DNA of 29,475 bases from a virus (IMGVR_UViG_2778261167_000005:1-29475), one strand, 5' to 3'. Shown: positions 1 through 15,774, counted from the stretch's first letter. Made by a program: numbers and translations. Notes: generated by a model from the letters alone, not told the origin.

Positions 1-342
1 ATGATGAAAAAAAGTATTCTGACGTTTCTGTTACTCACCAGTTCTGCAGCGGCGCTGGCTGCACCGCAGGTGATTACCGTCAGTCGTTTTGAAGTGGGTA
101 AAGACAAATGGGCGTTTAATCGCGAAGAGGTGATGCTGACTTGCAGACCGGGTAATGCTTTGTATGTCATTAACCCAAGTACCCTCGTGCAGTATCCTTT
201 AAACGATATCGCACAAAAGGAAGTTGCCAGTGGGAAGACTAAAGCCCAACCCATTTCGGTGATTCAGATTGATGATCCTAACAATCCCGGCGAAAAAATG
301 AGTCTGGCACCGTTTATAGAACGAGCTGAAAAACTCTGTTAA
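1..342 (+). CDS. yebY: Host periplasmic protein YebY (DUF2511 family), with N-terminal signal peptide
   Basis: 113-aa ORF with signal-like N-terminus [21 protein letters not shown]; matches my recollection of enterobacterial YebY; followed by a hairpin plus T-run. Lies outside the prophage. Confidence 0.65.
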
Positions 343-371
343 TTACCTAAAATAGCCTTTTGATTTCCAAT

Positions 372-414
372 AAAAAAACCGCCTCAGTTCTTTCACCAGA
401 ACGGGCGGTTTTTA
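372..414 (+). terminator. Rho-independent terminator after yebY
   Basis: Imperfect hairpin CCGCC...GTTCT-loop-AGAAC...GGCGG (379..408) followed by TTTTT (409..413). Confidence 0.6.
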
Positions 415-500
415 ACATTTCAGCTGATGACCACCACGCTTTTTATTGACCATTTTGCACGCAAACTGGAAAACCTGGCGTCGTCATCTATTCTTAAAGG

Positions 501-604
501 GCAAGGCAACTAAGCCTGCATTAATGCCAACTTTTAGCGCACGGCTCTCTCCCAAGAGCCATTTCCCTGGACCGAATACAGGAATCGTATTCGGTCTCTT
601 TTTA
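501..604 (+). ncRNA. sdsR: Small RNA resembling SdsR (RyeB), with sigma-S type -10 box and intrinsic terminator
   Basis: TCTATTCTTAA at 486..496 fits the sigma-S -10 consensus; transcript would begin near GCAAGGCAAC (501..510); internal hairpins at 527..536 and 544..561; perfect 10-bp stem GACCGAATAC/GTATTCGGTC (570..596) then TCTTTTT. Identity is from memory of the SdsR sequence and the yebY-adjacent locus. Confidence 0.55.
570..604 (+). terminator. Intrinsic terminator (3' end of the SdsR-like sRNA)
   Basis: 10-bp perfect stem, 7-nt loop AGGAATC, then TCTTTTTA. Confidence 0.75.
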
Positions 605-638
605 TGTGCTTGTTTTCGTTGGGTTTTTTCTGTGCTAT

Positions 639-667
639 CACGAAATCCCACGAAAATTACTCGAAAT
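639..667. repeat. Three direct repeats C(A/T)CGAAA(A/T) at about 10-bp spacing next to the int 3' end; candidate integrase arm-type sites within attL
   Basis: cacgaaat (639..646), cacgaaaa (649..656), ctcgaaat (660..667). Confidence 0.3.
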
Positions 668-680
668 TTCCATATCCTGT

Positions 681-1766
681 CTAAACCATAACATATTCTG
701 CACCGCGTGCGTCTAGGTATTTTTTGGTCATTGTTAAATTTTTATGCCCCAGCAGTCTCTGTGCGAAATCCTCTCCGCGCTCCCTTTCATACAGTCTGCT
801 CGCCAAGCTCCTGATCTCATGGAAAGGAGGGGGGTTGGGACCAAACTTTAACTCCGTAGAATCCCGGATGTCAGAAAATGCCTGGGTAATTCCGTCCGGA
901 GTTAACGGACCAGGCTTCCTGCCTCCACGTCTCACCGCTGAATACAGCATGAAGTCTGACGGGTTGTTTTTCCTGCAACGTTCGATAACATCCTGCAATA
1001 CCAAATCAGCAGAGTCCAGCCGCAAATCAAGTGGCAACGCCAATTTGTGACCTGTCTTTTCCTGTGTGACAAACAACCTTCCATCCCTGATATCGCTGAA
1101 TCTGAACAACGATACGTCCTCTCTTCTTTGCCCGGTGACAAGTGCCAGGTCACATGCGTTTGCAGCCCATTCGGAATGGGCTGTTGCGGCATCCCTTATT
1201 ATCTCAAACTGTTCAAGCAAAAGACGCTCACGCTTCACTTTGGGTGTCGGCGTTCTTGTCGGCTCTGCCGGATTCCTTTCAATATGTCCCTCGACGATCG
1301 CCTCCCTGAAAATATCCAACAATACCGAACGCAGGCCGGAGGCCATGCTCTTCTTATCGCAGAGTATGTAACTCTCCAGGAAAGTAGATATGTCCTTTGT
1401 GCTGACCGCCGATAGCGGCATGCACCCGAATTCATCACTGATAGTGGCGATCTGGTTGCGCCTGACCTTCATCGTGTTGGGCTTCAATTCTCTTCGCTCA
1501 AGAATTACTTCGTAGCGCTCAAGCCACGCTTTCACCGTAAAAGTTGGTGTTTCTTTTATGCGGTCCAGTAGCGCTGACGGAAGGTAATTCTGTTCGATGT
1601 AGTTATTGGCTTCGATGGCCTGAGAAATGGCGTCCTTTCTGTCGATCCGGCCAAGAGATAACTCTTGACCGGTAATCGGGTTTCGCCAGCTATAAAGCCT
1701 GTCTCTTTTACGATAGGTCAGGTTACGGGGCAGGTTAGCGTCGTAACGAACTGGCCTTTTCGCCAT
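681..1766 (-). CDS. int: Tyrosine recombinase, lambda-family phage integrase
   Basis: 361-aa ORF; C-terminal catalytic region ends ...HEIRSLASRLY...LLGHKNLTMTKKYLD... consistent with the R-H-R-Y tyrosine recombinase fold; sits at the prophage end next to the att region; GGAGAG RBS. Confidence 0.85.
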   Translation of the reverse strand: MAKRPVRYDANLPRNLTYRKRDRLYSWRNPITGQELSLGRIDRKDAISQAIEANNYIEQNYLPSALLDRIKETPTFTVKAWLERYEVILERRELKPNTMKVRRNQIATISDEFGCMPLSAVSTKDISTFLESYILCDKKSMASGLRSVLLDIFREAIVEGHIERNPAEPTRTPTPKVKRERLLLEQFEIIRDAATAHSEWAANACDLALVTGQRREDVSLFRFSDIRDGRLFVTQEKTGHKLALPLDLRLDSADLVLQDVIERCRKNNPSDFMLYSAVRRGGRKPGPLTPDGITQAFSDIRDSTELKFGPNPPPFHEIRSLASRLYERERGEDFAQRLLGHKNLTMTKKYLDARGAEYVMV

Positions 1767-2007
1767 GAGTCAGTCTCTCCAGTAGAGTGCCACCAGTTGG
1801 CAGCGGTATGCGTTTTGCTTTGGGACGAAGGTTCTTTTTGCTCGGATCCACATAGATGGCATCTGGCTGAACCTTATATTCTTTGCCATGAAGTTCCGGA
1901 GCAGGGTAAATACGCCCCTCCCGCGCCCAGCGGCGAAGTGTTGAAAGAGACGGTGGGGTTGAATAAGTTGAATTCGCCCATTCCAGCAGATTAAGAAGCT
2001 TGACCAT
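1735..2007 (-). CDS. xis: Excisionase (Xis-like DNA-binding protein)
   Basis: Small basic protein MVKLLNLLEWANSTYSTPPSLSTLRRWAREGRIYP..., winged-helix-like, resembling lambda Xis; overlaps the int start; start taken at the internal ATG. Confidence 0.65.
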   Translation of the reverse strand: MVKLLNLLEWANSTYSTPPSLSTLRRWAREGRIYPAPELHGKEYKVQPDAIYVDPSKKNLRPKAKRIPLPTGGTLLERLTHGEKASSLRR

Positions 2008-2071
2008 ACTACCTCCGGCTTCCGGCAACTTATTATAGAGCTGCCGGAAAACTGTTAATGAAATATCGTTA

Positions 2072-2314
2072 TCAACTCACCTGACCAGGTAGCGCGCGCA
2101 ACCGGCGCATACCTGTCATCGCCGTGGCCACGTAGCTCGCCTTGCGGTTCACCACTTCCACCCAGACTTTCACACCTTCAACTCTCACCGTGTATGTCTC
2201 CTTCATTTTGCTGCGGCCATAGTCGCCGTAACGTTCTGCATGAGTGGCCAGTGCTATGTCGCATGCCTGACGCGCTAACGGGGATTGCTGATTTGCACGG
2301 TTAATTAGACGCAT
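2072..2314 (-). CDS. Hypothetical early-left-operon protein
   Basis: ORF MRLINRANQQSPLARQ... co-directional with int/xis; start at internal ATG 2314. Confidence 0.4.
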   Translation of the reverse strand: MRLINRANQQSPLARQACDIALATHAERYGDYGRSKMKETYTVRVEGVKVWVEVVNRKASYVATAMTGMRRLRALPGQVS

Positions 2315-2504
2315 GGTCACCGCCTTCTGGATTGGATGGTTGACGGAAAACCGCTCGGGACGGCGACCAATCGCAATATGCATCGGTTTCGGTATGCCCG
2401 AAAATTGCCTTACAGCGACGGATATGAGCGCAGTCGCCGCAGGTCTTACCCTTCGGGAGTTGCATTTTATCGGGGTCTGCCGGGTTATAATTTAGCTCAG
2501 TCAT
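2301..2504 (-). CDS. Small Cys-containing protein (CxxC-x5-C-x12-C), possible zinc-ribbon / Lar-like restriction-alleviation candidate
   Basis: MTELNYNPADPDKMQLPKGKTCGDCAHIRRCKAIFGHTETDAYCDW...; the Lar-like suggestion is positional only (just before recT). Confidence 0.4.
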   Translation of the reverse strand: MTELNYNPADPDKMQLPKGKTCGDCAHIRRCKAIFGHTETDAYCDWSPSRAVFRQPSNPEGGDHASN

Positions 2505-2841
2505 TCCAGGCCTCCAGCTCGTTCTGGATTTCCTCGTCGATCTCGTCATTGGTGGCGTCTTCGTTTAGATAGTCGCGCGCCTCTTTAAGATACTGTTCTC
2601 GGCGTTCGTGGTACCAGGCAGAGAACTCCGGTGACCAGCCGCGACCATTACCTTGAAAATCAACCAGAGCGTTGTCCTCAGCCATACGCTCAACCATGCA
2701 GTCGGCAGTTGTCAGGGCGCATTCCCGGATGTAACCGCGAAGGTGGTTTTTGCGCCACCAAGGACTTACTTTCGAATCGCAACGTCCTTTGAACTCAATT
2801 TCCCAGCGGCGGATGCAGCGTGCGTTTAAAGATTTACTCAT
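2497..2841 (-). CDS. Hypothetical phage protein with acidic C-terminus
   Basis: 114-aa ORF with ATG; overlaps neighbours in operon fashion. Confidence 0.5.
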   Translation of the reverse strand: MSKSLNARCIRRWEIEFKGRCDSKVSPWWRKNHLRGYIRECALTTADCMVERMAEDNALVDFQGNGRGWSPEFSAWYHERREQYLKEARDYLNEDATNDEIDEEIQNELEAWND

Positions 2842-2875
2842 CTCGTTACCGGGAGGGTTCGCCCTCCCGCCTCCC

Positions 2876-3967
2876 TTAAGCCACGTATTCCGGTTTCATA
2901 TCCGCCAGGGTGATGCTGAACTGATCGTGCAGTTCGTCGCCCAGATGACGTTTCGCCGTTGCAAGAACTCGCTCAACTTCCCCAAACCGTTCAGCTGCAT
3001 CCGGTTCATCCGGAGACGGCAGGGAGTTTATCGCGGCTTCAACCTTGTTACGTGAATCAACCAGGTAGTAGCGCTTCACTGCCTTATTCTTCAGCTCGGT
3101 GAACAGGGCAGATCCGAGCGTGGCCTTCGCGCTTTCGATATCAGCGCGCAGTGCTTTGGCGCTATCAACATCCTGCGCAGCATCGATGCGTTCGCGGAAA
3201 TCATCGGCAAGAGCGTCGATATTTACCGACGATTCGTGTGCGCTTTGCGTAGTTGTGACGGTGTCACCTGCGATTTCAGCAACGCTCATTCGTTGGGCTG
3301 AGCCAGGGTTAATAACTTTTTCTTCTCGTTCTTCGACTTCATCGGCACTGTAAACACCGAGAATCACATCAGGGCAGTACAAGCGAGCCCAGCGCTTTAC
3401 CGCGAGATAAGCGAGCTGCTGACGCGGATCACTTGCCCATAGTGTCGAATTACGAACCTGAGCCTGAGAAAGCATGAGTACCAGTTCGCGTGGCTCATCC
3501 TCGCCTTTCATAGTTGCCCACACACGAACTCCTACACCGGCCTCATCCTTTAAATCCCAACCGGGCGCGATGTACTTATTGCCTTTAGAACTGGTTCTCT
3601 CTACAAATCGACCAATGATGTTTTCCCATGGACCAAACCAATCGTAATGAAGGCGATCTTTTGTAGGCGACATGTTGGTAACAACCGCATTAACCAGTTG
3701 AGCTTCGTAACCCAATACTCCGCTATTACCGACGATGTGGGTCTTCTGAGCTACGGCAAAGGGGTCCATACCCCATCGTGCGGCCTGCATGACCACAGCC
3801 ATGCAGGCATCTGGTTTTCCGCGGAAGTGGTCAGGTACAAAAGCGCCACTATTTGCCATCACTGTCGACAAGGTGCGTAGGCGGTCGAAAAGTTCCCCAT
3901 TAGTCAAAATTGAGATGTTATCGATCATTTGCGTCTTGTTTTCGTTGGTAGTAATTGCAGTAGACAT
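2876..3967 (-). CDS. recT: Phage single-strand annealing recombinase (RecT-like)
   Basis: 363-aa ORF directly downstream of the RecE-like exonuclease in the same operon; family assignment rests on synteny and general resemblance to RecT. Confidence 0.6.
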   Translation of the reverse strand: MSTAITTNENKTQMIDNISILTNGELFDRLRTLSTVMANSGAFVPDHFRGKPDACMAVVMQAARWGMDPFAVAQKTHIVGNSGVLGYEAQLVNAVVTNMSPTKDRLHYDWFGPWENIIGRFVERTSSKGNKYIAPGWDLKDEAGVGVRVWATMKGEDEPRELVLMLSQAQVRNSTLWASDPRQQLAYLAVKRWARLYCPDVILGVYSADEVEEREEKVINPGSAQRMSVAEIAGDTVTTTQSAHESSVNIDALADDFRERIDAAQDVDSAKALRADIESAKATLGSALFTELKNKAVKRYYLVDSRNKVEAAINSLPSPDEPDAAERFGEVERVLATAKRHLGDELHDQFSITLADMKPEYVA

Positions 3968-3979
3968 GTTCTTTTCCCC

Positions 3980-6913
3980 TTATGCCTGAGTACGCAGCGC
4001 TTCAAGGCGGCGCAGGTCGAAGTCGTTCAGTTCGTCGGTGTAGTCTTCGGTTATCGGTGCAGACCAGCAATCGGTGTCATACGCATTTGCGAGTGCACGC
4101 ATGGTGCGCTGATACTCCAGCAGCCCGAGGTCGAGCAAATCTTCCGATGCCTCAATTACCGCCACCCAGTGGTAGCCCTCGTCTTTGTTGACGAAGATCC
4201 AGAAGAACTGATCAAAGTCGGCAACGGAGCAATACATGCCAGCGCTGAGGTGGTAGTCGCGGTCGATGATTTCCCGGTGCAGTTTGGCGCGCAAACCGTC
4301 TTGCTTAACGCGTCCCATGCTGATCGTCTTCAGGTCAACACCGATACGAACGCCGTTGATTTGAACCTCAAGGTCAGGGCGCACACGGACTTCCAGACCG
4401 GTTTCGTCGTCCATCCCGAAATAACTTGTTTCCACTGAACGGGAAGGATGGCGCAGCAGTTTCCCGGCTGATTCATGATTCAGTAGGGCTTGCTGAATTG
4501 CCGTGGCCAGCGTCAGTTGTTCTCTGGACAGGATGGTTTTCCCATCAACGCTATCGCGCCATTGCTGCTCAAATTCATCAGCGAAAATGGCCTCCGGGCT
4601 GACCGCGCGTATCGCCGCCTGAAGTTCTTCTTTCTTACCGGTGAGCTTCAGTTGCTCGGCCTTTGGCTTATCCGCGTTAAATTCTCGAATGAACGCCTTC
4701 ATGGAGTCGGTGGTGGTAAACGCCTCAGCCGGAATACCTGGGAATACCGCAAACTCTTCGTGGAGCTTTTCGGGCTCCAGGGCCAGGGTGTGCGCCAGGC
4801 TACCGAACGTCAGCGCCTCGCTGCTTTCGCGACGGATAGTCTTGGTCACGTGACGGCCGTGATAGAACATCAGGCTGACACGTGCGTCTTTCACCTGGGT
4901 TGAGCTGATACCGTTCGCTGCGTGATAAACCTCGTTCGGCAGACCTTCATAGCGGCCAGGTTCGAAGTAAGCAGGGTACACAACACCCGGTTCGTCAGAT
5001 TGAGCTTCTGGCTCGGTTTGGGCCGCAACCGGTTCGGTTTGGTTTACAGAATCGCTGTTTTGGCTAACAGAATCCGCATTCTGGCTCACATCGGCTTGCT
5101 GGCCGGTATGTGACTCTTCACCAGTTTCCAGACTGCTTTCGCCTGACTGCACTTCATCACCAGCCTGTTCTTCATCACTGACAGTTTCTTCCATCTGCAC
5201 ATTGCTGGTGGTTTCCTCATTAAGTGGTGAACGGTTATCTGTTTGGGTTTGTTGATCGCCCATCAGGCCATCAATGGAGAATACGCCGTTGCCCATGTTG
5301 GCGATTTGTGGCTGTTTAGCAGCTGTTTTCTGCTCTGCAGCGACCTGCTCATTAACCTCATTTTCCCAGCTGACGTCCGGCGCATGACCAGCATCAGCCA
5401 GCGTTTCTTCTGAGGGGTTTGAGTGGTCATTTTCGGTTAGATTGGCATTGATATATGCCCGCAACCGCCCAGGAAAGTTAACCAATTCTGATGATGTGCC
5501 GCGGATGAGTGCAAAGATGGCGGCGCGTGAATAGTCCAGGATGCCAGCGGTTTTGCGCAGCGCCTCAGACCATTCGCTGAACGGACTTTCTTTCTTGCTG
5601 ACAATCTCTTTAGCGCGACGGTAGACCCCACCAGGTATGTCGTAGATATTGAAATCCATTGGCAAGGTGGCCAGCGCAATTTCAACATCCAAAGTGTCCA
5701 GTGTGTGGACATAGTCGGTATTACGATCGGTCTTATTTCCACCGCCAGCATTGGTTTTGACGTCAGTACGTTGAATCTGCGCAATGCGGTTACCTTTCTG
5801 CCATTCCTTGACCAGCAGGCCACGGTCGATGTAATCAGTGTTGAACCACACAGTCAGGAACTGGATAACTGTTGCCAGCTCCGGTTTTTTACCGTCGACA
5901 GGGAAGACTTTCTTAACAGCATTCACGACTTTATGAATATCGTGCTCAATGGCTTTTTTGAATGCTTCCACATTCTCAGCAGCCAGCAGCAGGTTCTGGA
6001 TGTACGTGTCATCAGTGTCCATCTCAAGGCGGACAATCTCGTTTTTCTGCCCAGCGTCGATGTGATAGAGATATTCACCATCACCGATGAACTGAGCCAG
6101 TACGCGCTGACGGAATGGCAGGGTGGCTACGACGATCAGGTTCGGCTGATCTGGCTGCTGAGATTGTTCTTCGGGACCGACTTCATCACCAACGCTGGTG
6201 GTTTCAGTTTTGAGCAGAGGAAACCTTCCACTGCGCCAGTCTTCAACCAGTTGATTGCGATCACCTGCTTCTGCGTTCACCCAGTCAGACATGAAAGCAG
6301 CGATCACTTCAGGTCCATGCTCTTCACCCTGTTCGAAGATGTCTTTAATCGCCTGAATCATTTTCCACTCAGCATTAAGACTGAGTTCGCCAACTTCAGG
6401 AACATCATTTTTAACCTGCAGCAAGTTCTGGAGATAGGTATTGCTTTCGGCCAGTGACATTTCGCTGGCAGCCAGCTGCTGCTCTTTAGTGACGTGAGTC
6501 TGGTACTTATCGCTCATCAGATGGAAGGCAAAACGGACTGCTGGAGTGCGGTTTTCTAACGATACATTCTCGTCAGAAGTCGCTACTTCATCGGTATTTT
6601 TTACATCGGCAGGGATAGTGGTGACAACGTCGCCAGCGGCCTTTGGCAGCCAGGTGCGCCCGTCGTCCTGTAGTTCGTAACGATCACACCAGGTGAAATC
6701 AACTTCACCTTCTTCCGGCAGGTCATCAACAACAGGAAAATCTGTGCGAATTGGTTTAGCGTAGTCCTTGCCACGACCGGTCTCGATACCTGCATCTTCC
6801 AGCGCAACGTCCAGCATCAGGTTGGCGCGAGCCTCAGTTTTTGCAGTGAACCAGATAAAAGCATCAGGCTTTCCCGACTTTTGTGTGGCTTTAACTACAT
6901 ATGGAAATTCCAT
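3980..6913 (-). CDS. recE: Exodeoxyribonuclease VIII (RecE-like 5'-3' dsDNA exonuclease, PD-(D/E)XK C-terminal domain)
   Basis: 977-aa ORF; C-terminal region (...YFEPGRYEGLPNEVYHAANGISSTQVKD..., ...RPDLEV...DLKT...) resembles the RecE nuclease domain; long acidic low-complexity linker; paired with recT. Confidence 0.7.
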   Translation of the reverse strand: MEFPYVVKATQKSGKPDAFIWFTAKTEARANLMLDVALEDAGIETGRGKDYAKPIRTDFPVVDDLPEEGEVDFTWCDRYELQDDGRTWLPKAAGDVVTTIPADVKNTDEVATSDENVSLENRTPAVRFAFHLMSDKYQTHVTKEQQLAASEMSLAESNTYLQNLLQVKNDVPEVGELSLNAEWKMIQAIKDIFEQGEEHGPEVIAAFMSDWVNAEAGDRNQLVEDWRSGRFPLLKTETTSVGDEVGPEEQSQQPDQPNLIVVATLPFRQRVLAQFIGDGEYLYHIDAGQKNEIVRLEMDTDDTYIQNLLLAAENVEAFKKAIEHDIHKVVNAVKKVFPVDGKKPELATVIQFLTVWFNTDYIDRGLLVKEWQKGNRIAQIQRTDVKTNAGGGNKTDRNTDYVHTLDTLDVEIALATLPMDFNIYDIPGGVYRRAKEIVSKKESPFSEWSEALRKTAGILDYSRAAIFALIRGTSSELVNFPGRLRAYINANLTENDHSNPSEETLADAGHAPDVSWENEVNEQVAAEQKTAAKQPQIANMGNGVFSIDGLMGDQQTQTDNRSPLNEETTSNVQMEETVSDEEQAGDEVQSGESSLETGEESHTGQQADVSQNADSVSQNSDSVNQTEPVAAQTEPEAQSDEPGVVYPAYFEPGRYEGLPNEVYHAANGISSTQVKDARVSLMFYHGRHVTKTIRRESSEALTFGSLAHTLALEPEKLHEEFAVFPGIPAEAFTTTDSMKAFIREFNADKPKAEQLKLTGKKEELQAAIRAVSPEAIFADEFEQQWRDSVDGKTILSREQLTLATAIQQALLNHESAGKLLRHPSRSVETSYFGMDDETGLEVRVRPDLEVQINGVRIGVDLKTISMGRVKQDGLRAKLHREIIDRDYHLSAGMYCSVADFDQFFWIFVNKDEGYHWVAVIEASEDLLDLGLLEYQRTMRALANAYDTDCWSAPITEDYTDELNDFDLRRLEALRTQA

Positions 6914-7052
6914 GTGAGATCCTCATTTTTGGGTGTTAGAATCCCCGAGCCATTGATAGCGCCCATTGGGTTAACTTTGGTTTTAATGTTGTTTCCGGTG
7001 TAACTTTGGTCGGTGGCACCGGACGTAGATCCCGCCTTGCGCGGGTTTTACG

Positions 7053-7214
7053 TTAGCCTTCGTGAGCCATCTGGTCGTGCGAAGCGCAACGTTTGGAACA
7101 ATACTCTTTCTCTTTGCGCGCCAGCTGTGAGCCGTTTCGATAGAGAAGGGTGCTTTTTATTACTTCTTCCGGTTTAACCGGTTTGCTGCAATAACCGCAT
7201 TTCTTGTCTTGCAT
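7053..7214 (-). CDS. Small Cys4 zinc-ribbon protein (YdaE-like position in Rac)
   Basis: Hand-translated 53 aa, not in the ORF track: MQDKKCGYCSKPVKPEEVIKSTLLYRNGSQLARKEKEYCSKRCASHDQMAHEG; CxxC...CxxxC. Confidence 0.5.
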   Translation of the reverse strand: MQDKKCGYCSKPVKPEEVIKSTLLYRNGSQLARKEKEYCSKRCASHDQMAHEG

Positions 7215-7225
7215 GACACTCTCCG

Positions 7226-7432
7226 TTAATGGCTGAGGCCATTCCCCAGACCGTTCAGATAAACTTCAACCAGCAAATCCCTGGTGTAAGTCATCTCAAC
7301 GCCTCGATGCAGATACAAACGACCACGAGCGTTAGCTGATGCTGTCCAGGTTGAGTCTTTGTGTTTGACGAGCATCCCAGGCTGAACTGCGCCGCGGTTT
7401 ACCGTCTGTGTACCGTAGTACTGATGAACCAT
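7226..7432 (-). CDS. Hypothetical small protein, first gene of the leftward operon (Kil-like by position)
   Basis: Start taken at ATG 7432 (MVHQYYG...) with GGAG RBS; alternative GTG start at 7534. Kil assignment is positional only. Confidence 0.35.
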   Translation of the reverse strand: MVHQYYGTQTVNRGAVQPGMLVKHKDSTWTASANARGRLYLHRGVEMTYTRDLLVEVYLNGLGNGLSH

Positions 7433-7666
7433 GATGTTCTCCAGTTTTTCTGAGTGAACTTCGCTGGTGGTGCCGTCGTGCTGATCTTCACAGTTGAGCG
7501 TTTTAACTCTGCAGTTCACCACCGCGAAGCTCACTTCTGTTTTGCCTTATAGCCGGCCAGCTGAGCGTTAAACCTGATGCGCGTTATTCAATCCACCTCA
7601 TCCGACTATTCATATGCCGTCGGCGGCTACTTCGTGGGCGTCCTGCCTGAGTGGTTCGTGTTGCGA

Positions 7667-7705
7667 TGGAGTAAGTAAAGCACCATTTTACTTTATGGTC
7701 AAACA
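7667..7705 (-). promoter_or_regulatory. Leftward early promoter PL with operator palindrome AGTAAA-N7-TTTACT
   Basis: Minus strand reads TTGACC (-35), 17-bp spacer, TTTACT (-10); the operator at 7675..7693 overlaps the spacer and -10; 35-nt stretch is nearly identical to the PR region at 9563..9598. Confidence 0.6.
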
Positions 7706-7845
7706 AAAGGTGTTCTACGTGGAGGATGTTGCGTGACGGAAGGCAAAAAAATCGGCGCGATGGCTGAGATCGGAGAGAGGAGCAGGCATTTAGCATGTTC
7801 GTCACTCGGTGCTAATCTTTCTGGGTGGCACAACGGAGCGGAACG

Positions 7846-8043
7846 ATGAAGAGCAAAGACGAACAGACTGGGTTGGTTGGCTTGGCGATTGGCGCGGCAG
7901 TGATTGGCTTGGTATCAGTTCAAAAACCCATTAACCGGGCGAGCATCATTGACGAACTGGTGAGACTGGGGAGACAGAAGGGCGATGGCGTTCAGGATGA
8001 GGTGTTTGAGAAGGCGGCGGAGCTGGTGAGTAAAGGGGTATAA
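7846..8043 (+). CDS. Small hydrophobic protein (65 aa), probable single-pass membrane peptide
   Basis: ATG at 7846 with GGAG 7 nt upstream; MKSKDEQTGLVGLAIGAAVIGLVSV...; lies between PL and the repressor-linked moron, convergent with it. Confidence 0.45.
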   Translation: MKSKDEQTGLVGLAIGAAVIGLVSVQKPINRASIIDELVRLGRQKGDGVQDEVFEKAAELVSKGV

Positions 8044-8066
8044 AAACCCGGCGCGATGGCCGGGTC
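8041..8066 (-). terminator. Intrinsic terminator for the minus-strand gene 8100..9020
   Basis: Stem CCCGGC/GCCGGG (8047..8064) with TTTTTA on the minus-strand 3' side (8041..8046). Confidence 0.6.
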
Positions 8067-8099
8067 ATATATTAGTCATCATTCGTATGAAACTAAAAA

Positions 8100-9020
8100 T
8101 TAAAAAGGTAAATCAATTTGCCTTTGTGGGTTGATTATTTTTTTTACCTTCACTATCTCATATGAGGTTTTTATACCTTTATCAGCAAGATACTGAGTGA
8201 TTTTTAGATCAACGAGCAAAAGGTCGCCTTTTGCAAAAGCAACTGATTGCTCATCAATCGCATTGAGGAATTTCTCATCACTGACCTCGGCTTGAAATGG
8301 GCTTGCACCATCTGAAAAATTCCATTTATGGCCTTCTCGAAATGAGATATCAAGAGGATGAAGTGCTCTTTCTGTAACGGACTCAGAAATAATAGTTTCT
8401 TCAGTGCTGTCTACTTTGAAAAAACATGCTTCACTCTTTGTAACTTCAACAAAAGTATGACCATCATCGATAGTGACTGCAAAACTATCGATCCCATCCC
8501 TCTCCAATGGTTTAGAGATTACATTCTCAAGAGCTCTGCGTATTTTTTTATTTTTATATAAATCTATGACTTGATTGTCAAAAACCTCACTTTCATCATC
8601 GATGAAAATTGTGGAGCTACCGTCAAATGTTGGCTCAATACGTTTAATTTTTTTTGGACCTAACCATTTTATTAGCTGAATCAGGCCCTTATATGACTGC
8701 TTAGTGGCTAAGTAGCCAAAACCTACCAAGCTTATGATATTGCAAGCAGCGGAAGCATTATTTCCAGAAAAAACACCTAGTATTTGACTTGTTATGGATG
8801 TTGACTGCGCTATGAGATCAATTCCAAAGGAACCCGCTTTAAATGAAGCGTTGACTTTAATTGATATACGCCTTTCTTTTCCATAGATAGTTTTTCCCGC
8901 CTCTTCTAAAGCATCGGATAGTGACAAAAGCGCCGGCGCAAGATCACGTACATCCATCTCGTGCGTGTCCAAAGCTGGGCCGTCGTAAACTATTCTGAAC
9001 TTCATATCGTCACTATCCAT
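8100..9020 (-). CDS. Uncharacterized 306-aa protein in a low-GC moron downstream of the repressor (rex/sieB-equivalent position)
   Basis: Long ORF with ATG at 9020; distinctly AT-rich compared with flanking phage genes; co-oriented with the repressor; own terminator; no motif I recognise. Confidence 0.6.
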   Translation of the reverse strand: MDSDDMKFRIVYDGPALDTHEMDVRDLAPALLSLSDALEEAGKTIYGKERRISIKVNASFKAGSFGIDLIAQSTSITSQILGVFSGNNASAACNIISLVGFGYLATKQSYKGLIQLIKWLGPKKIKRIEPTFDGSSTIFIDDESEVFDNQVIDLYKNKKIRRALENVISKPLERDGIDSFAVTIDDGHTFVEVTKSEACFFKVDSTEETIISESVTERALHPLDISFREGHKWNFSDGASPFQAEVSDEKFLNAIDEQSVAFAKGDLLLVDLKITQYLADKGIKTSYEIVKVKKIINPQRQIDLPF

Positions 9021-9135
9021 CAATGCCTATCCTGTGCATGATTATAAACCTGATCGTATATACAGTACATTTAATAAGTCATTACTTAGATGTTCTCTTA
9101 CCCACTGCTACTCTCTATGCACTGACCAGAGGTCT

Positions 9136-9519
9136 TCAATCCCCCTGCGATCTGATCCGCCCCTTCATGTACTTCTCATACAACTCATCCAACTCTTTCA
9201 GGCGAATGGCAAAGATGCGGAGCATGTTCTGTTGCTCTTCTTCCGGTAGTTGGCGGTAGAGCTCCAGCAGACGCTGTTCGTCCGGCTTGAGGCCGTCTTT
9301 CTCATCGACATCCTCACCGAGTAACCAAGGTACCGAAACGCCAGCTGCATCAGCGATGGCCAGTGCAGATTGTTTGCTAATCCTTCCTGTTTTGAACCAG
9401 CTGGATACAGCTTGCTTACTGACACCAGCAATCTTGGCCATCTCCGTTTTGGAGAAGCCTTTATTGTTCAGTTCTGTGAGTCTCGAAATAAGACCGTCTG
9501 TCAATGTGTTTTCACTCAT
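9136..9519 (-). CDS. Prophage repressor, HTH XRE-family (RacR/CI-like, no peptidase domain)
   Basis: 127 aa from ATG 9519; HTH segment KTEMAKIAGVSKQAVSSWFK; divergent from the Cro-like gene; operators in the 97-bp intergenic region. Confidence 0.75.
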   Translation of the reverse strand: MSENTLTDGLISRLTELNNKGFSKTEMAKIAGVSKQAVSSWFKTGRISKQSALAIADAAGVSVPWLLGEDVDEKDGLKPDEQRLLELYRQLPEEEQQNMLRIFAIRLKELDELYEKYMKGRIRSQGD

Positions 9520-9616
9520 CTCATGATTGTAAATGATTGCTTTACTCTCTGATAGGGATGTATTGTTTGACACGTCAGTAAAACAATGCTTTACTTCCTT
9601 CATCTAAGGAGGTCCC
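9520..9616. promoter_or_regulatory. Immunity switch region: PR promoter plus two operators (O1 9577..9595, O2 9528..9546) and a candidate PRM
   Basis: PR: TTGACA 9567..9572, 17-bp spacer, TTTACT 9590..9595, AGGAGG RBS 9607..9612. O1 AGTAAAacaatgcTTTACT; O2 TGTAAAtgattgcTTTACT. Minus-strand TACAAT lies immediately before the repressor ATG. Confidence 0.65.
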
Positions 9617-9826
9617 ATGACTGGTATTGAAAATGCAATTCTCCGATCTGGCTCGGCCAGCGCGCTTGGCGCTTTGATCGGCGTTTCAAAAATGGCTGTT
9701 TCGCTGTGGCGCCGTAAAGGAATTCCTGCCGAACGAGTGCTACCAGTGTTTGAGGCAACCGGCGTAACGCCCCACGAACTGCGCCCAGATCTCTACCCAA
9801 ATCCCACTGACGGTTTACCAAAGTAG
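9617..9826 (+). CDS. Cro-like HTH regulator (YdaS-like)
   Basis: 69 aa, strong AAGGAGG RBS; HTH LGALIGVSKMAVSLWRRKG; first gene of the rightward operon, divergent from the repressor. Confidence 0.7.
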   Translation: MTGIENAILRSGSASALGALIGVSKMAVSLWRRKGIPAERVLPVFEATGVTPHELRPDLYPNPTDGLPK

Positions 9827-9837
9827 GAGCACTAACC

Positions 9838-10377
9838 ATGCAGACACTTACTTATCAGAATGATAGCGACATTACTCAAGGGGTAATGATAAATCGCGCT
9901 CAAGCGCGCAGGGGGCCGAGCCATGAAGATATTCGTGACGCGGTTCGCTCCTGGGCTGGCGCCGATGGCCAGGACGTAGTCACGGCTCTGATCATCGAAG
10001 AGTACCTGGCGCAAGGAGGTGATGAGATCACTTTTCCTGATGATCTCTGCCGAAAACGCCAGAAGCTGTTCCGCTTTCTGGACAACCACTTCAACAGTGA
10101 ACGGTACCGCGAGAACGTTCGCCAGCTGACTCCGGCAATCCTCGCAGTTCTGCCGATTGAATACCGCAACCGTCTGCTGCCAGAAGACAACATCATGGCT
10201 CGCCTGGCACGTATGGAGAAGGAAACCAGCGAAGCGAAGATAGCTGTCGCAATGGATGCGCCGCGTCATCAGAAGCTGAAAGAGCTGAGTGAAGGGATCG
10301 TGGAGATGTACCGCGTTGACCCTGGCTTAACCGGGCCGCTGATGGAAATGGTGCAGATGATGCTGGGGGTTGTATGA
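9838..10377 (+). CDS. YdaT-like protein (Rac YdaT family)
   Basis: 179 aa; conserved-looking segments EEYLAQGGDE and LTPAILAVLP recall E. coli YdaT; sits immediately after the Cro/YdaS-like gene as in Rac. Confidence 0.55.
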   Translation: MQTLTYQNDSDITQGVMINRAQARRGPSHEDIRDAVRSWAGADGQDVVTALIIEEYLAQGGDEITFPDDLCRKRQKLFRFLDNHFNSERYRENVRQLTPAILAVLPIEYRNRLLPEDNIMARLARMEKETSEAKIAVAMDAPRHQKLKELSEGIVEMYRVDPGLTGPLMEMVQMMLGVV

Positions 10378-10541
10378 CGGGTTCAAAAATGGCGAAAGCC
10401 GTGGTGCTCGAACACCAACGGCCTTCAGGTGCAAATGTAGAGACAAATGCAAAATCAGTATGCCCACACAATCATATTTTTACCAGTGGAAGTTCTGTTC
10501 ACTGGAACGATCTCATCGCTTTCATTTATCAGGAGGACGCA

Positions 10542-11381
10542 ATGGCCGGTGACTGGATAAAAATGCGCGCCGAGCTGCATACGCATCCGAAAATTGTCCG
10601 CATGTCGTCCGCTTTGAAAGCGGACAGATTGCGCGTTGTTGGTGGACTACATTCCGCATGGTGTCTTTTTGATGTCCATTCTACCGATGGTTTTCTTCAC
10701 GGATACACACCGGAAACTCTCGACGATTTAATCGGCTTCCCTGGCTTTGCGCGAGCAATGATTGCTGTCGGATGGCTGGAAGAAGAGGGTGAAAACCTAG
10801 TAATGCCGCGGTTTGATGTGCACAACGGACAGTCCGCCAAGCGTCGAGCACAGGATGCAGACAGGAAGAAAAAATCCCGCAAAATGTCCGCTTGTGATGC
10901 GGACAAAAAGGGGACCAGAGAAGAGAAGAGAAGAGAAGATATAAAAGATCAAAACCCAGAGAGAGAACGCGCGGGAGAAAACTCTTCCGTGGAAGTCATT
11001 TCTGGCAATGGAACTTCATCACCAACCATTCAACATCAACCGGCCGCTGAAGATTTCGGTGCTGGATGCGCGTTCGGTCCACTTGGCAAATTTCCAATCA
11101 CTGACTCCTGGGCTCCATCTCCTGATTTCGTTCGTCAGGCTGCACTCTGGGGAAAAAACGTCGGTGCAGAACCGGGTTACACCGCTGAAGAACTCCAGCA
11201 GTTCCGTGATTACTGGATCCCTGATGGCAAAGTTAAACACCAGTTGGCCTGGGAACAGACGTTTGCTGACAGCCTGTTGCAATCGCGTAGTCGAATCAAA
11301 AGGGCAAACTCTGCGGGATCGCGAGATGTGAACCGCATTTCTGAGCCAGATAAAACCATCCCAACCGGATTCAGGGGGTAA
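10542..11381 (+). CDS. Phage replication initiation protein (replisome organizer N-terminus, DnaT-like C-terminal domain)
   Basis: ATG 10542 with AGGAGG RBS; alternative upstream start 10374 overlaps the ydaT-like stop (ATGA). C-terminal ...FRDYWIPDGKVKHQLAWEQTFADSLL... is DnaT-like; internal palindromic repeats. Confidence 0.6.
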   Translation: MAGDWIKMRAELHTHPKIVRMSSALKADRLRVVGGLHSAWCLFDVHSTDGFLHGYTPETLDDLIGFPGFARAMIAVGWLEEEGENLVMPRFDVHNGQSAKRRAQDADRKKKSRKMSACDADKKGTREEKRREDIKDQNPERERAGENSSVEVISGNGTSSPTIQHQPAAEDFGAGCAFGPLGKFPITDSWAPSPDFVRQAALWGKNVGAEPGYTAEELQQFRDYWIPDGKVKHQLAWEQTFADSLLQSRSRIKRANSAGSRDVNRISEPDKTIPTGFRG

Positions 11382-11383
11382 GC

Positions 11384-11722
11384 ATGCCAAGACCAAATAC
11401 ACCAGAAGAGCAGGCGGCACTTATCCGGGTGATCATCGAAGAGGTGAAAATCCGTGGACGCTTAACCGTTAGCGAAGCATCACAGATGTTGTCGCTGCAT
11501 CGTCAGACTGCTGAGAAGTATTTCCGCGTAGCAGCCGAACGCGGCGAACTCATTCGTCACGGTCGTCTTGGATTGTTCAGGGACCGGAAGGCTGTGATTG
11601 ATTTTGATCTTCAGCGTTTTTCATACAGCTCGAGTAAGTCTGCGATTGAATTACCAGCCGATTTTCGGGGAAGCGCGGTTATGCGCCGGGTTATAGATAT
11701 CTTAGGGAGAATGCCAGCATGA
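11384..11722 (+). CDS. Hypothetical protein with predicted HTH
   Basis: 112 aa, AGGGGG RBS; segment LTVSEASQMLSLHRQTAEKYF is HTH-like. Confidence 0.5.
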   Translation: MPRPNTPEEQAALIRVIIEEVKIRGRLTVSEASQMLSLHRQTAEKYFRVAAERGELIRHGRLGLFRDRKAVIDFDLQRFSYSSSKSAIELPADFRGSAVMRRVIDILGRMPA

Positions 11723-12120
11723 AACCAACATACGAACAACTTGAACAGCAGGTGCTCGAACTGTCAGTACAGCTCGCTAACTCCGAGAGCAAGTGCAGGG
11801 AGCTGGCCGGGGTAGTTGCTGATAACACTGATTTAAAATCGCTGATTGAACAACATGCAGGCTCTATCGCTGTATGTCCTAACTGCTCACACGAAGAGCC
11901 AAGCGAAACTGACGATATCGTTGCGTTATATCGCTCACTGAAAACCCCAGCCACCGACGCTTTCCTGGCTGAAGTGCGGGTGCAGGGCGTGGAGATGTTT
12001 GCTGACTTCTGCGGTGAAGAAAACTCTGTATTCGTCGAGGCCAAGGCTTACTACCGTTCACTTGCGGATGCAGTTGAAGAGTTTGCCGCACAGCTACGCC
12101 AAGGAGCCGCGCATGAGTAA
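11719..12120 (+). CDS. Hypothetical phage protein with N-terminal coiled coil
   Basis: 133 aa, GGGAGA RBS, overlapping stop/start with neighbours. Confidence 0.5.
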   Translation: MKPTYEQLEQQVLELSVQLANSESKCRELAGVVADNTDLKSLIEQHAGSIAVCPNCSHEEPSETDDIVALYRSLKTPATDAFLAEVRVQGVEMFADFCGEENSVFVEAKAYYRSLADAVEEFAAQLRQGAAHE

Positions 12121-12589
12121 CGCAGCGACTGTTTTGGATGTGTGCTGCGGCTCCCGCATGTTCTGGTTCAACAAGCAGGACACCCGCGCCGTGTTCGCTG
12201 ATATCCGAGCCGAAGAGCACGAGCTGTGCGATGGTCGCCGCCTGGTTATCAGTCCCGACCTGATTTCCGACTTCCGTGCGTTGCCATTCGCCGACGCATC
12301 GTTTCCGGTTGTGGTGTTTGATCCACCACACCTTGAACGTGTCGGCCAAACAGCCTGGATGGGTAAAAAATACGGGCGACTGAACAAAAAAACGTGGCGT
12401 TCGGACCTGCGAGCCGGATTCAAAGAAGCTTTTCGCGTGTTGTGGCCACATGGTGTGCTCATCTTCAAATGGAACGAAACACAAATACCGGTTAGCCAGA
12501 TTCTGGCGCTTACAGACGTGAAACCGGCAATTGGCCAGCGAACTGGGAAGAACGACAAAACCCACTGGATTATCTTTGTGAAGGACTAA
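12113..12589 (+). CDS. Small class-I SAM-dependent methyltransferase (motif I LDVCCGS, motif IV DPPH); putative nucleic-acid amino-methyltransferase
   Basis: 158 aa; glycine-rich SAM motif near the N-terminus and VVFDPPH; AAGGAG RBS; start overlaps the upstream stop (ATGAGTAA). Confidence 0.6.
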   Translation: MSNAATVLDVCCGSRMFWFNKQDTRAVFADIRAEEHELCDGRRLVISPDLISDFRALPFADASFPVVVFDPPHLERVGQTAWMGKKYGRLNKKTWRSDLRAGFKEAFRVLWPHGVLIFKWNETQIPVSQILALTDVKPAIGQRTGKNDKTHWIIFVKD

Positions 12590-12748
12590 CCCATGACGAC
12601 TACCTTCGTTTTTCTGTAATCCAATGTAGTCTGGATGGTGTCACAATCGCATTGCCGAACACTCAACGTGATCAATTGTATAAAAAAAGCTCAGTCTGTG
12701 ATTGTTTATGATTAAGGGCATTGACGTTTTTTTATTGACTTGTTTTTT

Positions 12749-13381: not shown

Positions 13382-13685
13382 ATGTGGACACCGAAAGAGA
13401 GCGAGCAAAGGATTATAAACGTAGTGATGGGGTGATTAAAACGCGTTGAACTGGCTGTTTTGAAATGGACTTTTAAACTTTGACTAAGGTCATTAAATCA
13501 TCGCGATTTGAAGTTTAAGCGAAAATAGTTGATGAGGGGTATTGACCTTTAGTGCTCGCCGGTGACAAGCCAACTCAGGAAGAGATTAATGATGCTGTAA
13601 GGGACGCGCGAATTACCCATCCGTGGAAATTCGCCTGGCATTGATTGATGTATAATCCCTCTCAATGTATCGAGGGGGATTATAC

Positions 13686-13943
13686 ATGTCGGACTGGAAC
13701 ATCGCAGCAAAATCGAAAGAAGAGCAGGACAAGGTTAACGTCGACCTTGCTGCCTCCGGAGTTGCGTACAAAGAGCGTCTGAACATGCCAGTTATCGCCG
13801 AGCAGGTATCCCGTGAGCAGCCAGAGCACTTACGCGAATACTTCATGGAGCGCGTTCGCTACTACCGCGAGCAAAGCCTGACGCTTCCAAAAGCATCCGA
13901 TCCGCGCTATCTGGATATGGCAGCCCAGAACGAGAAGAAGTAA
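13686..13943 (+). CDS. Small hypothetical protein (possibly the cold-shock-induced YnaE/YdfK family of Rac/Qin; uncertain)
   Basis: 85 aa, ATG 13686 with GAGGGGG RBS; preceded by a palindrome overlapping a TATAAT box. Confidence 0.45.
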
Positions 13944-14931: not shown

Positions 14932-14966
14932 GCACCCGTTAACCTGATGCGCCACGGAGAGAAACC

Positions 14967-15772: not shown

Positions 15773-15774
15773 GC

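What the first reader, a model, noticed from the sequence alone, without database searches (positions are those of the whole stretch)
343..680. Prophage inserted into the SdsR/RyeA sRNA locus beside yebY
Between yebY and int lies a plus-strand element with a sigma-S-type -10 (TCTATTCTTAA), a roughly 100-nt structured transcript and a strong terminator, matching my recollection of SdsR (RyeB). The int stop is only about 77 bp beyond that terminator, so the antisense partner RyeA/SraC would be truncated or replaced by phage DNA. This locus is a reported hot spot for horizontally acquired DNA.
Basis: partly seen in the sequence, partly recalled or inferred. Interest (0 to 1): 0.5.

Follow-up and report, generated by a model that had tools for sequence, protein, structure and literature searches.

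The report
Prophage integrated at SdsR/RyeA locus
A lambda-like prophage sits exactly at the 3' end of the E. coli small-RNA gene sdsR, a known phage landing site. It leaves SdsR intact and swaps the start of the antisense RNA RyeA for phage DNA, which appears to carry its own copy of the RyeA promoter inside the end of the integrase gene.

Summary
Rfam finds full-length SdsR at 504-603 (+), 116 bits, and the RyeA model at 607-463 (-), 177 bits. yebY lies upstream. A lambda-family int (681-1766, -) ends 78 nt past the SdsR terminator.

Identity to E. coli K-12 stops at 605. The att core is 578-605 (28 bp) and flanks the same element as a direct repeat in E. coli strain 1506. The junction is uninterrupted in 5191 of 5426 complete E. 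coli genomes. Only 5 carry this integrase type; 228 carry a 50%-identical one at the same site.

This kind of insertion is already published for Salmonella, Cronobacter and Pectobacterium, so the finding is a new member of a known kind.

One refinement: RyeA is not lost. Only its promoter and first 36 nt move to attR. The last int codons (TAT GTT ATG GTT TAG) reproduce the inferred K-12 ryeA extended -10, TGTTATGGT. That motif is kept in 45 of 46 related phage flanks and in decayed "fossil" flanks, including K-12's own.

I predict a hybrid RyeA of about 306 nt made from a phage promoter. This is inferred from sequence, not measured. pphA is probably uncoupled from the sdsR promoter.

The parts
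1..342 (+). yebY (113 aa), the conserved left-hand neighbour of sdsR
   Evidence: ORF. It is annotated as a YebY family protein in all matching E. coli genomes.
371..412 (.). Bidirectional hairpin terminator. It serves as the yebY terminator on the + strand and the RyeA terminator on the - strand.
   Evidence: Identical to K-12. The minus-strand fold is -20.6 kcal/mol, followed by U7. K-12 RyeA 3' ends at +261 to +270 map here.
487..497 (+). Sigma-S-type sdsR promoter -10 region: C(-13) at 488 and TATTCT at 489-494
   Evidence: Read from the sequence. The +1 at 501 comes from primer BHI+11R. Sigma-S dependence and the -13C are described in PMC3333887 and PMC6610125.
501..602 (+). SdsR (RyeB) sRNA, complete. 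Its last ~14 nt (589 onward) are probably supplied by the phage.
   Evidence: Rfam RF00111 at 504-603, 116.4 bits. Fold. The A at 589 contrasts with G in K-12 attB and in the attR of two lysogens.
578..605 (.). attL core ACAGGAATCGTATTCGGTCTCTTTTTAT (28 bp). It covers the loop, the 3' arm and the T-run of the SdsR terminator.
   Evidence: Identity to K-12 ends at 605. The same 28-mer (with R at position 12) occurs twice in strain 1506, flanking the related element. It occurs only once in this window.
372..605 (-). The retained host part of RyeA/SraC, corresponding to nt ~37-270 of the K-12 RNA
   Evidence: Rfam RF00101 at 607-463, 177.5 bits. Identical to K-12.
606..680 (.). Phage P' arm of attL, with three arm-type repeats C(A/T)CGAAA at 639, 649 and 660
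   Evidence: Repeats located. They are conserved in 46 type-A flanks and, as ATTTCGG/ATTCGAG, in type-B flanks and in the Flyfo phage attP. The Int has a lambda arm-binding domain.
685..746 (-). Predicted phage-borne ryeA promoter module, lying inside int codons 341-361. It comprises TTAACA (737-732), an A-tract (725-720), CTAGAC (716-711) and the extended -10 TGTTATGGT (693-685).
   Evidence: It aligns with the K-12 ryeA promoter region. It is conserved in 45 of 46 phage flanks and in fossil flanks. Synonymous diversity is reduced here.
372..677 (-). Predicted hybrid RyeA of about 306 nt: 72 nt of phage leader followed by host sequence
   Evidence: Inferred by transferring the K-12 spacing between the -10 and the +1. 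There is no expression data.
681..1766 (-). Lambda-family tyrosine integrase (361 aa)
   Evidence: Pfam PF09003, PF22022 and PF00589. Catalytic residues R214, H316, R319, H341 and Y350 are present. It is 38-40% identical to the HK022, 434 and HK97 integrases.
1735..2028 (-). Excisionase. It overlaps the first 10 int codons.
   Evidence: Pfam PF07825, E = 7e-21.
2029..29475 (.). The rest of a mosaic lambdoid prophage. It runs off the window end, so attR is not included.
   Evidence: RecT, RecE, a DnaT-like protein, Q, holin, terminase, portal and capsid genes. Patchy 83-93% matches to mEp237, HK225 and Klebsiella phages.

Best explanation
A lambdoid temperate phage integrated by lambda-type Int/attP recombination into the last ~25 nt of sdsR, with the att core at 578-605.

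Because attP duplicates that sequence, SdsR is rebuilt intact. Its promoter and body come from the host. Its terminator 3' arm probably comes from the phage, which turns a G-U pair into A-U.

The antisense RNA RyeA normally starts 36 nt to the right of the core. Its promoter and those 36 nt are therefore moved to the far end of the prophage. In their place sit the P' arm and the 3' end of int. The last int codons contain a module homologous to the host ryeA promoter: an A-tract, CTRGAC and the extended -10 TGTTATGGT. Transcription from it would give a RyeA of about 306 nt with a phage-derived 5' leader that still fully overlaps SdsR.

pphA in K-12 depends on read-through from the sdsR promoter. 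Here it is separated from that promoter by the whole prophage.

Shown: the insertion, the core, the intact SdsR, the loss of the native RyeA 5' end, the homology and the conservation of the module.

Inferred: that the phage module fires, the transcription start site, and the effects on SdsR, RyeA and pphA levels.
For: - Identity of the RNAs: Rfam hits.
- Break point: identity to K-12 stops at 605.
- Empty site: the junction is uninterrupted in 5191 of 5426 genomes.
- Direct repeats: the core flanks the related element in strain 1506.
- Phage-derived base: attL has A and attR has G at the position of window 589 in two independent lysogens.
- Site specificity: all 13 relatives of this Int, from 13 species, lie ~77 bp from SdsR. 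In IMG/VR, every SdsR-adjacent core is followed by a type-A or type-B int.
- K-12 RyeA start: +1 is L001 2141, from the primer names in PMC6610125. It lies 36 nt beyond the core, with TGTTATGGT immediately upstream.
- Homology: the same 10-mer plus flanking homology sits in int codons 358-361. nhmmer gives E = 5e-5.
- Constraint in intact genes: synonymous diversity is 0.17 in the last 22 codons against 0.42 overall. The motif is kept in 45 of 46 flanks.
- Constraint in fossils: the promoter blocks are 94-100% identical, while the spacers are 31-46%.
- Published precedent: PhiW104 lysogeny modifies the RyeA 5' part and lowers its expression. SraC in Salmonella and Shigella is ~35 nt longer, with the -10 ~35 bp further upstream, which fits the phage spacing (+36 nt).
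- pphA: it is transcribed by read-through from the sdsR promoter.
Against: - There are no transcript data for this lysogen.
- The simple sigma-70 scan finds no promoter at 685-746. It also misses the experimentally proven K-12 ryeA promoter.
- The conserved CTGGAC block lies 19-20 nt from the -10 hexamer, so it is not a canonical -35.
- The window has CTAGAC where 44 of 46 relatives and all fossils have CTGGAC. Its promoter could therefore be weaker.
- My assignment of TATGGT as the K-12 -10 rests on spacing from the mapped +1. The hexamer itself is printed only in a figure I could not read.
- attR of this very prophage is outside the window.
Confidence: 0.75

Rival explanations
1. RyeA is simply knocked out. 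Integration removes its only promoter, the int-embedded motif is silent, and the lysogen has de-repressed SdsR and no antisense partner.
For: - The native promoter and +1 to +36 are certainly gone from this side.
- PhiW104 lysogeny lowers ryeA and raises ryeB expression.
- The window carries the rare CTAGAC variant.
- The consensus scan finds no promoter.
Against: - The extended -10 is identical to K-12's.
- The whole module is conserved in intact int genes beyond coding needs.
- The module survives as islands of identity in fossils whose int has decayed.
- The scan also misses the proven K-12 promoter.
- The published summary says RyeA was 'modified' upon lysogeny, not abolished.
Confidence: 0.17
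2. The nucleotide-level conservation at the int 3' end serves the phage recombination or int-expression machinery rather than a promoter. Candidates are an extended P' arm with IHF or Int sites, or a sib-like 3' element of int mRNA.
For: - The region adjoins the P' arm sites.
- Lambda attP extends close to the int stop (from my own knowledge of lambda).
- The int 5' end shows a similar synonymous dip caused by the xis overlap, so such dips can have non-promoter causes.
Against: - The blocks persist in host flanks where int and the arm sites are gone, as in K-12 with its 36-nt shorter interval.
- In K-12 the RyeA +1 mapped by primer extension and RACE lies 8 nt downstream of the block, by my placement from primer names.
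- Type-B phages have a different int C-terminus. They nevertheless keep an intergenic TG-n-TATAAC at the homologous position.
Confidence: 0.06
3. There was no recent insertion: the int-sdsR arrangement is the ancestral state of this strain's lineage, or it is an assembly artefact.
For: The window ends inside a repeat and lacks attR.
Against: - 5191 of 5426 E. coli genomes have sdsR joined directly to the pphA flank.
- Only 5 genomes carry this int.
- The identity break is sharp and falls at a 28-bp core that is directly repeated in a relative.
- Dozens of IMG/VR contigs share the same junction.
Confidence: 0.02

Closest known systems
PhiW104 and other horizontally acquired DNA at the ryeA/ryeB locus of Salmonella enterica (Balbontin et al. 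2008, J Bacteriol 190:4075; read here only through PMC7380047 and PMC3333887)
   Same: - The attachment site lies in the last ~23 bp of ryeB (sdsR), internal to ryeA.
- SdsR is preserved.
- The RyeA 5' part and its expression are altered by lysogeny.
   Different: - The host here is E. coli.
- The core defined here is 28 bp.
- The phage is a different mosaic lambdoid. Whether the PhiW104 int is type A or type B was not determined.
- I could not find the link between the int 3' codons and the ryeA promoter in the accessible literature. The primary paper was not readable.
The uninterrupted E. coli K-12 sdsR/ryeA/pphA circuit (Choi et al. 2019, PMC6610125)
   Same: The sdsR promoter, SdsR, the RyeA body and the shared terminator are identical apart from one base at 589. 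Both have convergent sigma-S and sigma-70 promoters.
   Different: - The RyeA promoter and +1 to +36 are replaced by phage sequence.
- The predicted RyeA is 36 nt longer.
- pphA is no longer directly downstream of sdsR.
Lambda/HK022-type Int-attP systems
   Same: - The Int has an N-terminal arm-binding domain plus a catalytic domain.
- xis overlaps the int start.
- int lies next to attP, with three arm-type repeats in P'.
   Different: - Only 38-40% identical.
- A different core and target: an sRNA terminator instead of gal-bio.
- An outward-facing promoter-like module lies inside the int 3' end.
Phage and island integration into the 3' ends of tRNA and tmRNA genes, with reconstitution of the gene
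   Same: The element carries a copy of the RNA gene's 3' end, so the target RNA stays functional. A conserved hairpin with a T-run or acceptor-like 3' end serves as the core.
   Different: The target is a trans-acting Hfq sRNA with an overlapping antisense gene. Integration therefore necessarily rewires the antisense partner.
'Type B' SdsR-targeting prophages of E. coli (for example strain Z1323CEC0010 and O26:H11) and the Salmonella element ZC-S1_prp
   Same: - The same att core.
- The same arm-repeat family.
- int is oriented toward sdsR.
- An outward extended -10 about 80 nt from the core.
   Different: - The Int is only 50% identical.
- The promoter-like element is intergenic (TG-n-TATAAC), not inside int.
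- Present in 228 complete E. coli genomes against 5 for type A.

Membership tests
SdsR/RyeB sRNA (Rfam RF00111) | Covariance-model match above the gathering score over the full model | tested here: met
   116.4 bits against 38, model positions 1-100 of 100, window 504-603 (+).
SdsR/RyeB sRNA (Rfam RF00111) | Located downstream of yebY, with a sigma-S-type -10 (C at -13) and a Rho-independent terminator | tested here: met
   yebY at 1-342. C488 followed by TATTCT at 489-494. Hairpin at 569-597 followed by a T-run.
SdsR/RyeB sRNA (Rfam RF00111) | RpoS-dependent stationary-phase expression and Hfq binding | not testable with these tools
   This needs expression data. The promoter and RNA body are identical to K-12.
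SraC/RyeA sRNA (Rfam RF00101) | Covariance-model match above the gathering score | tested here: met
   177.5 bits against 37, window 607-463 (-). The model spans only RyeA nt ~35-179.
SraC/RyeA sRNA (Rfam RF00101) | The native K-12 5' end (+1 to +36) and the sigma-70 promoter adjacent to pphA | tested here: not met
   Sequence to the right of 605 is phage DNA. The K-12 +1 lies at L001 2141, 36 nt beyond the core.
SraC/RyeA sRNA (Rfam RF00101) | A promoter homologous to the K-12 ryeA promoter, positioned to transcribe antisense across sdsR | tested here: met
   TGTTATGGT plus the A-tract and CTRGAC blocks at 685-746 (-) align with K-12. Promoter activity was not tested.
Lambda-family tyrosine integrase with attP arms | Arm-binding N-terminal domain, a central domain and a catalytic domain with the R-H-R-H-Y residues | tested here: met
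   PF09003, PF22022 and PF00589. R214, H316, R319, H341 and Y350.
Lambda-family tyrosine integrase with attP arms | Repeated arm-type sites flanking the core, with xis adjacent | tested here: met
   Three C(A/T)CGAAA repeats at 639, 649 and 660. xis at 1735-2028.
Integrated prophage at the ryeA/ryeB hot spot (Balbontin 2008 type) | The core coincides with the last ~23 bp of sdsR | tested here: met
   The core at 578-605 covers SdsR nt 78-102 plus 3 further bases.
Integrated prophage at the ryeA/ryeB hot spot (Balbontin 2008 type) | A direct repeat of the core at the other prophage end (attR), next to the pphA flank | tested here: inconclusive
   There is no second copy within the 29.5-kb window. 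It is present in the related element of strain 1506 (L003 670-697 and 11126-11153) and in a type-B lysogen.
Integrated prophage at the ryeA/ryeB hot spot (Balbontin 2008 type) | An empty site exists in the same species | tested here: met
   5191 of 5426 complete E. coli genomes have the uninterrupted junction.

The most novel reading that the evidence does not exclude
The ryeA/sraC promoter of E. coli K-12 and many other Enterobacteriaceae is a domesticated fossil of the 3' end of an SdsR-targeting phage integrase gene, spanning codons His341 to stop.

Living phages of this family carry the promoter inside a functional int. Each integration therefore swaps the resident RyeA promoter for a fresh homologous one, and RyeA is in origin a phage-supplied antisense RNA (antitoxin) to SdsR.

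The direction, phage to host, follows from the conserved blocks. They encode residues shared with lambda Int (H-K-x-x-T-M...Y-x-D-x-R-G), so the coding function came first.
Probability: 0.65. Interest if true: 0.55.

Novelty: new member of a known kind. Interest (0 to 1): 0.4.

Why it matters
SdsR is a conserved RpoS-dependent regulator. Its reported targets include ompD, tolC, mutS and yhcB, and it is reported to be toxic when unchecked by RyeA.

A prophage that lands in this locus rewires three things at once:
- the antisense partner RyeA,
- the strength of the sdsR terminator,
- the downstream pphA gene.

Lysogens may therefore differ from non-lysogens in stationary-phase physiology, mutation rate or drug efflux.

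If the fossil-promoter reading is right, it explains a published puzzle: SraC/RyeA is patchy and variable between species while SdsR is uniform. It also gives a clean example of a host regulatory RNA promoter born from a phage coding sequence.

Tried and rejected
- Looked for attR in the window with the 23-mer and up to 3 mismatches, and with a repeat search. There is none, so the prophage runs off the end.
- Ran the consensus sigma-70 scan on the window and on K-12. It is uninformative, because it also misses the proven K-12 ryeA promoter.
- Tried to read Balbontin 2008 by DOI and by PMC id. It is not held, so I relied on secondary summaries.
- Searched the phage collection with the int region. 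Only one distant relative appeared, Flyfo siphovirus Tbat2_3 at 69% nt identity, which supplied an attP.
- Searched the phage collection with the K-12 right flank. Only the core matched.
- First read CTGGAC/TGGACN as a -35 with a 17-nt spacer. A recount gave 19-20 nt, so I dropped the claim of a canonical -35.
- Considered that the phage captured the host promoter rather than the reverse. I rejected this because the conserved blocks encode integrase-family residues.
- Considered that the full-length Rfam RyeA hit means RyeA is intact. I rejected this because the model lacks the RyeA 5' 36 nt.

Full report
**1. What is in the window**

Positions 1-342 encode YebY. Rfam gives three hits above gathering score:
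- SdsR_RyeB at 504-603 (+): 116.4 bits, full model, E = 2.8e-22.
- SraC_RyeA at 607-463 (-): 177.5 bits, full model.
- isrI, far inside the prophage and unrelated to this finding.

Using the primer names of Choi et al. 2019 (BHI+11R), the SdsR +1 is window 501. This puts TATTCT at -12 to -7 and a C at -13, the sigma-S signature discussed in PMC3333887. The 3' ends at +100 to +102 fall at 600-602.

The RNA folds into three hairpins at -34.8 kcal/mol, z = -4.7. The terminator is the hairpin at 569-597 plus a T-run.

The next gene is a 361-aa integrase on the minus strand (681-1766), whose stop codon lies 78 nt beyond the terminator. It is followed by xis (1735-2028), RecT and RecE.

**2. It is an insertion, and where exactly**

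Against 5426 complete E. coli genomes, window 1-1100 matches everywhere up to 605-608. It continues beyond that point in only 5 genomes.

A 311-nt probe across the K-12 junction is uninterrupted in 5191 of 5426 genomes.

The alignment with K-12 is perfect from the end of yebY to 605, apart from one base: 589 is A in the window and G in K-12. After 605 the identity collapses.

In E. coli strain 1506, a 10.4-kb IS1-truncated relative of this prophage has an int region 96% identical in DNA. It is flanked by two copies of ACAGGAATCGTRTTCGGTCTCTTTTTAT, the second directly abutting the K-12-type flank and pphA.

The core is therefore window 578-605, 28 bp. It covers the loop, the 3' arm and the T-run of the SdsR terminator. 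This agrees with the 'last 23 bp of ryeB' reported for PhiW104.

In strain 1506 and in an unrelated lysogen, attL carries A and attR carries G at the position of 589. Strand exchange therefore probably lies within 578-588. The last ~14 nt of SdsR in the lysogen are phage-derived, which converts a G-U pair of the terminator stem into A-U. The second core copy is not in the window, because the prophage runs off the end.

**3. The integrase and its relatives**

The Int has the lambda arm-binding, central and catalytic domains and the catalytic residues R214, H316, R319, H341 and Y350. It is 38-40% identical to the HK022, 434 and HK97 integrases.

Three arm-type repeats C(A/T)CGAAA lie at 639, 649 and 660.

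All 13 relatives found in one-genome-per-species contigs sit ~77 bp from a full SdsR. They come from Enterobacter, Citrobacter, Leclercia, Lelliottia, Siccibacter, Brenneria, Buttiauxella and others, at 52-95% identity.

An isolated phage genome, Flyfo siphovirus Tbat2_3, has the corresponding attP with an SdsR-like core.

In IMG/VR at least 120 contigs contain the core. Every core preceded by SdsR is followed by either this 'type A' int or a 'type B' int that is 50% identical, always pointing toward sdsR.

In E. coli, type A is rare (5 of 5426 genomes). Type B is present in 228 genomes, including O26:H11. An ISApl1 insertion accounts for another interrupted junction.

The rest of the window is an ordinary mosaic lambdoid prophage.

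**4. What happens to RyeA**

K-12 RyeA is a 272-nt sigma-70 transcript. From the primer names ERIA-80F and BHIA+10R, its +1 is L001 2141, which is 36 nt to the right of the core. Its 3' end lies in the bidirectional terminator at window ~372.

Integration therefore removes only the promoter and the first 36 nt. Window 372-605 remains identical to K-12.

The Rfam RyeA model covers only RyeA nt ~35-179. That is why it still scores at full length, and why the hit does not prove RyeA is intact.

**5. A homologous promoter inside int**

Immediately upstream of the K-12 +1 is TGTTATGGT, an extended -10. The hexamer assignment is my inference from spacing, because the paper's figure was not readable.

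The same 10-mer TGTTATGGTT occurs in the window at 693-684 (-), where it forms int codons TAT GTT ATG GTT (Y-V-M-V-stop).

The alignments show that the K-12 'empty-site' flank L001 2148-2214 is homologous to the last ~67 nt of int. An nhmmer profile of nine int 3' ends hits it with E = 5e-5 in the 7.2 kb searched, at the expected place and orientation.

Three kinds of evidence indicate that the module is functional DNA rather than mere ancestry.

(a) Intact int genes. Among 10 genes about 78% identical on average, synonymous diversity is 0.42 overall but 0.17 in the last 22 codons. The only lower values fall in the stretch overlapping xis. The residual variation lies in the spacer.

(b) Phage flanks. 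Across 46 distinct type-A flanks, TATGTTATGGTTTAG is intact in 45 and CTGGAC in 44. The window and one other have CTAGAC.

(c) Fossil host flanks. These are 14 attR-side flanks with no detectable int, representing about 9 lineages and including K-12. In an 11-sequence subset, mean pairwise identity by block is as follows:

| Block | Mean pairwise identity |
|---|---|
| A-tract (AAAAA) | 1.00 |
| CTGGAC | 1.00 |
| TGnTATGGTT | 0.94 |
| H-K-N-L-T block (CACAAAAATTTAACA) | 0.76 |
| 17-nt spacer (length kept constant in all but one fossil) | 0.46 |
| Segment between the H-K-N-L-T block and the A-tract | 0.37 |
| Upstream 35 columns | 0.31 |

This pattern is what purifying selection on a promoter would leave after the gene has decayed.

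The conserved blocks encode integrase-family residues: H-K-N-L-T, K-K-Y-L-D and, from my knowledge of lambda Int, its H-K..T-M...Y.D.R-G motif. The coding role is therefore ancestral, and the host promoter derives from the phage gene.

Type-B phages have a different int C-terminus. They nevertheless carry an intergenic TG-n-TATAAC at the homologous distance (~82 nt) from the core, and this too is retained in fossils.

One caution: CTGGAC lies 19-20 nt from the -10 hexamer, so I do not call it a -35. The promoter looks like the extended -10 plus A-tract type.

**6. Predicted consequences (inferred)**

Transferring the K-12 spacing gives a start at ~677 and a hybrid RyeA of ~306 nt. Its first 72 nt are the phage P' arm. 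This is 36 nt more than in K-12.

The difference matches the observation that SraC of Salmonella and Shigella is ~35 nt longer, with its -10 ~35 bp further upstream. It also fits the report that lysogeny by PhiW104 modifies the 5' part of RyeA and lowers its level while raising RyeB.

In K-12, pphA mRNA arises mainly by read-through from the sdsR promoter, and ryeA transcription interferes with it. In the lysogen pphA lies beyond the whole prophage, at least 29 kb away, so it should lose that input.

The displaced host ryeA promoter at attR should now read into the right end of the phage. This could not be examined here.

**7. Comparison with what is known, and novelty**

Prophage integration in ryeA/ryeB is published for:
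- Salmonella (Balbontin 2008),
- Cronobacter,
- Pectobacterium.

The window is therefore a new E. coli member of a known kind, carrying an integrase type that is rare in E. coli.

I did not find the homology between the int 3' codons and the ryeA promoter, or its survival as a fossil at 'empty' sites, in the papers I could search. I could not read the primary 2008 paper, so priority is uncertain.

**8. Limits**

- There are no expression data.
- The transcription start site and the promoter activity are inferred.
- The host taxonomy of the IMG/VR contigs is unknown, and the independence of the fossil lineages is approximate.
- attR of this prophage was not seen.

Noticed in passing
L001 2106-2237 (E. 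coli K-12 'empty' site, between the sdsR terminator and pphA): The canonical E. coli attB is not pristine. Its right flank is a decayed integrase 3' end, which makes it a fossil attL, with a net 36-nt shorter interval between the -10 and the core than in the phage. pphA encodes a lambda-PP-like phosphatase and may belong to the same ancient prophage.
   Followed up: partly
window 18157-18253 (+): An Rfam isrI hit (57.6 bits against a gathering score of 45). It lies between the Q antiterminator gene (17043-17867) and the holin gene (18347-18682), and overlaps a small ORF of PHROG 1856. This is the late-leader position of the lambdoid prophage.
   Followed up: partly
window 29239-29475: A perfect 9-nt tandem repeat (GCAGAGCAG)n of about 20 or more copies runs to the very end of the window. 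It encodes (AEQ)n in an ORF that starts near 29104 (PHROG 2288), downstream of the capsid gene. The window or contig probably ends here because of the repeat.
   Followed up: partly
window 711-716 (-): The window has CTAGAC (Leu CTA) where 44 of 46 related phage flanks and all fossils have the invariant CTGGAC. This is a synonymous change in a block that otherwise never varies.
   Followed up: partly
window 1735-1766; int codons 1-20: Synonymous diversity among int homologues drops to 0.06 at the 5' end, where int overlaps xis.
   Followed up: yes
L018 (E. coli 17MR471, NZ_CP051158.1) ~2660-3860: An ISApl1 (IS30-like) copy is inserted just past the sdsR terminator. The same spot is therefore also hit by an insertion sequence.
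   Followed up: no
L020 (E. coli Z1323CEC0010), 48-kb prophage: A type-B SdsR-targeting lambdoid prophage. It carries nleG7, sodC, lom, four tRNA genes, and ralR and hokD toxins. This int type is present in 228 of 5426 complete E. coli genomes, including O26:H11.
   Followed up: partly
L003 3680-4377 (E. coli strain 1506): The closest E. coli relative of this prophage is a 10.4-kb remnant in which an IS1A sits between the recombination genes and the tail and baseplate genes. An acyltransferase gene lies at the right end, on the same strand as RyeA. It could therefore be read from the displaced host ryeA promoter at attR.
   Followed up: no
L017 (Enterobacter pasteurii) and L016 (Citrobacter murliniae): Partial int remnants. 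In L017 only the last 31 codons survive. Both still keep TATGTTATGGTTTAG and the P' arm next to SdsR, so they represent intermediate stages of fossilisation.
   Followed up: partly
L013 2171-2259 (-) (Brenneria corticis): An Rfam C4 antisense RNA hit (68 bits) lies within ~2 kb of the SdsR-adjacent integrase, which suggests a P1/P7- or P4-like immunity element in that prophage.
   Followed up: no
L021 (Salmonella 'phage' ZC-S1_prp, OK490361.1): This deposited 19.6-kb circular record joins a sopE-family gene, the SdsR core and a split type-B integrase. It looks like the Salmonella ryeB-adjacent island or remnant rather than a complete phage.
   Followed up: no
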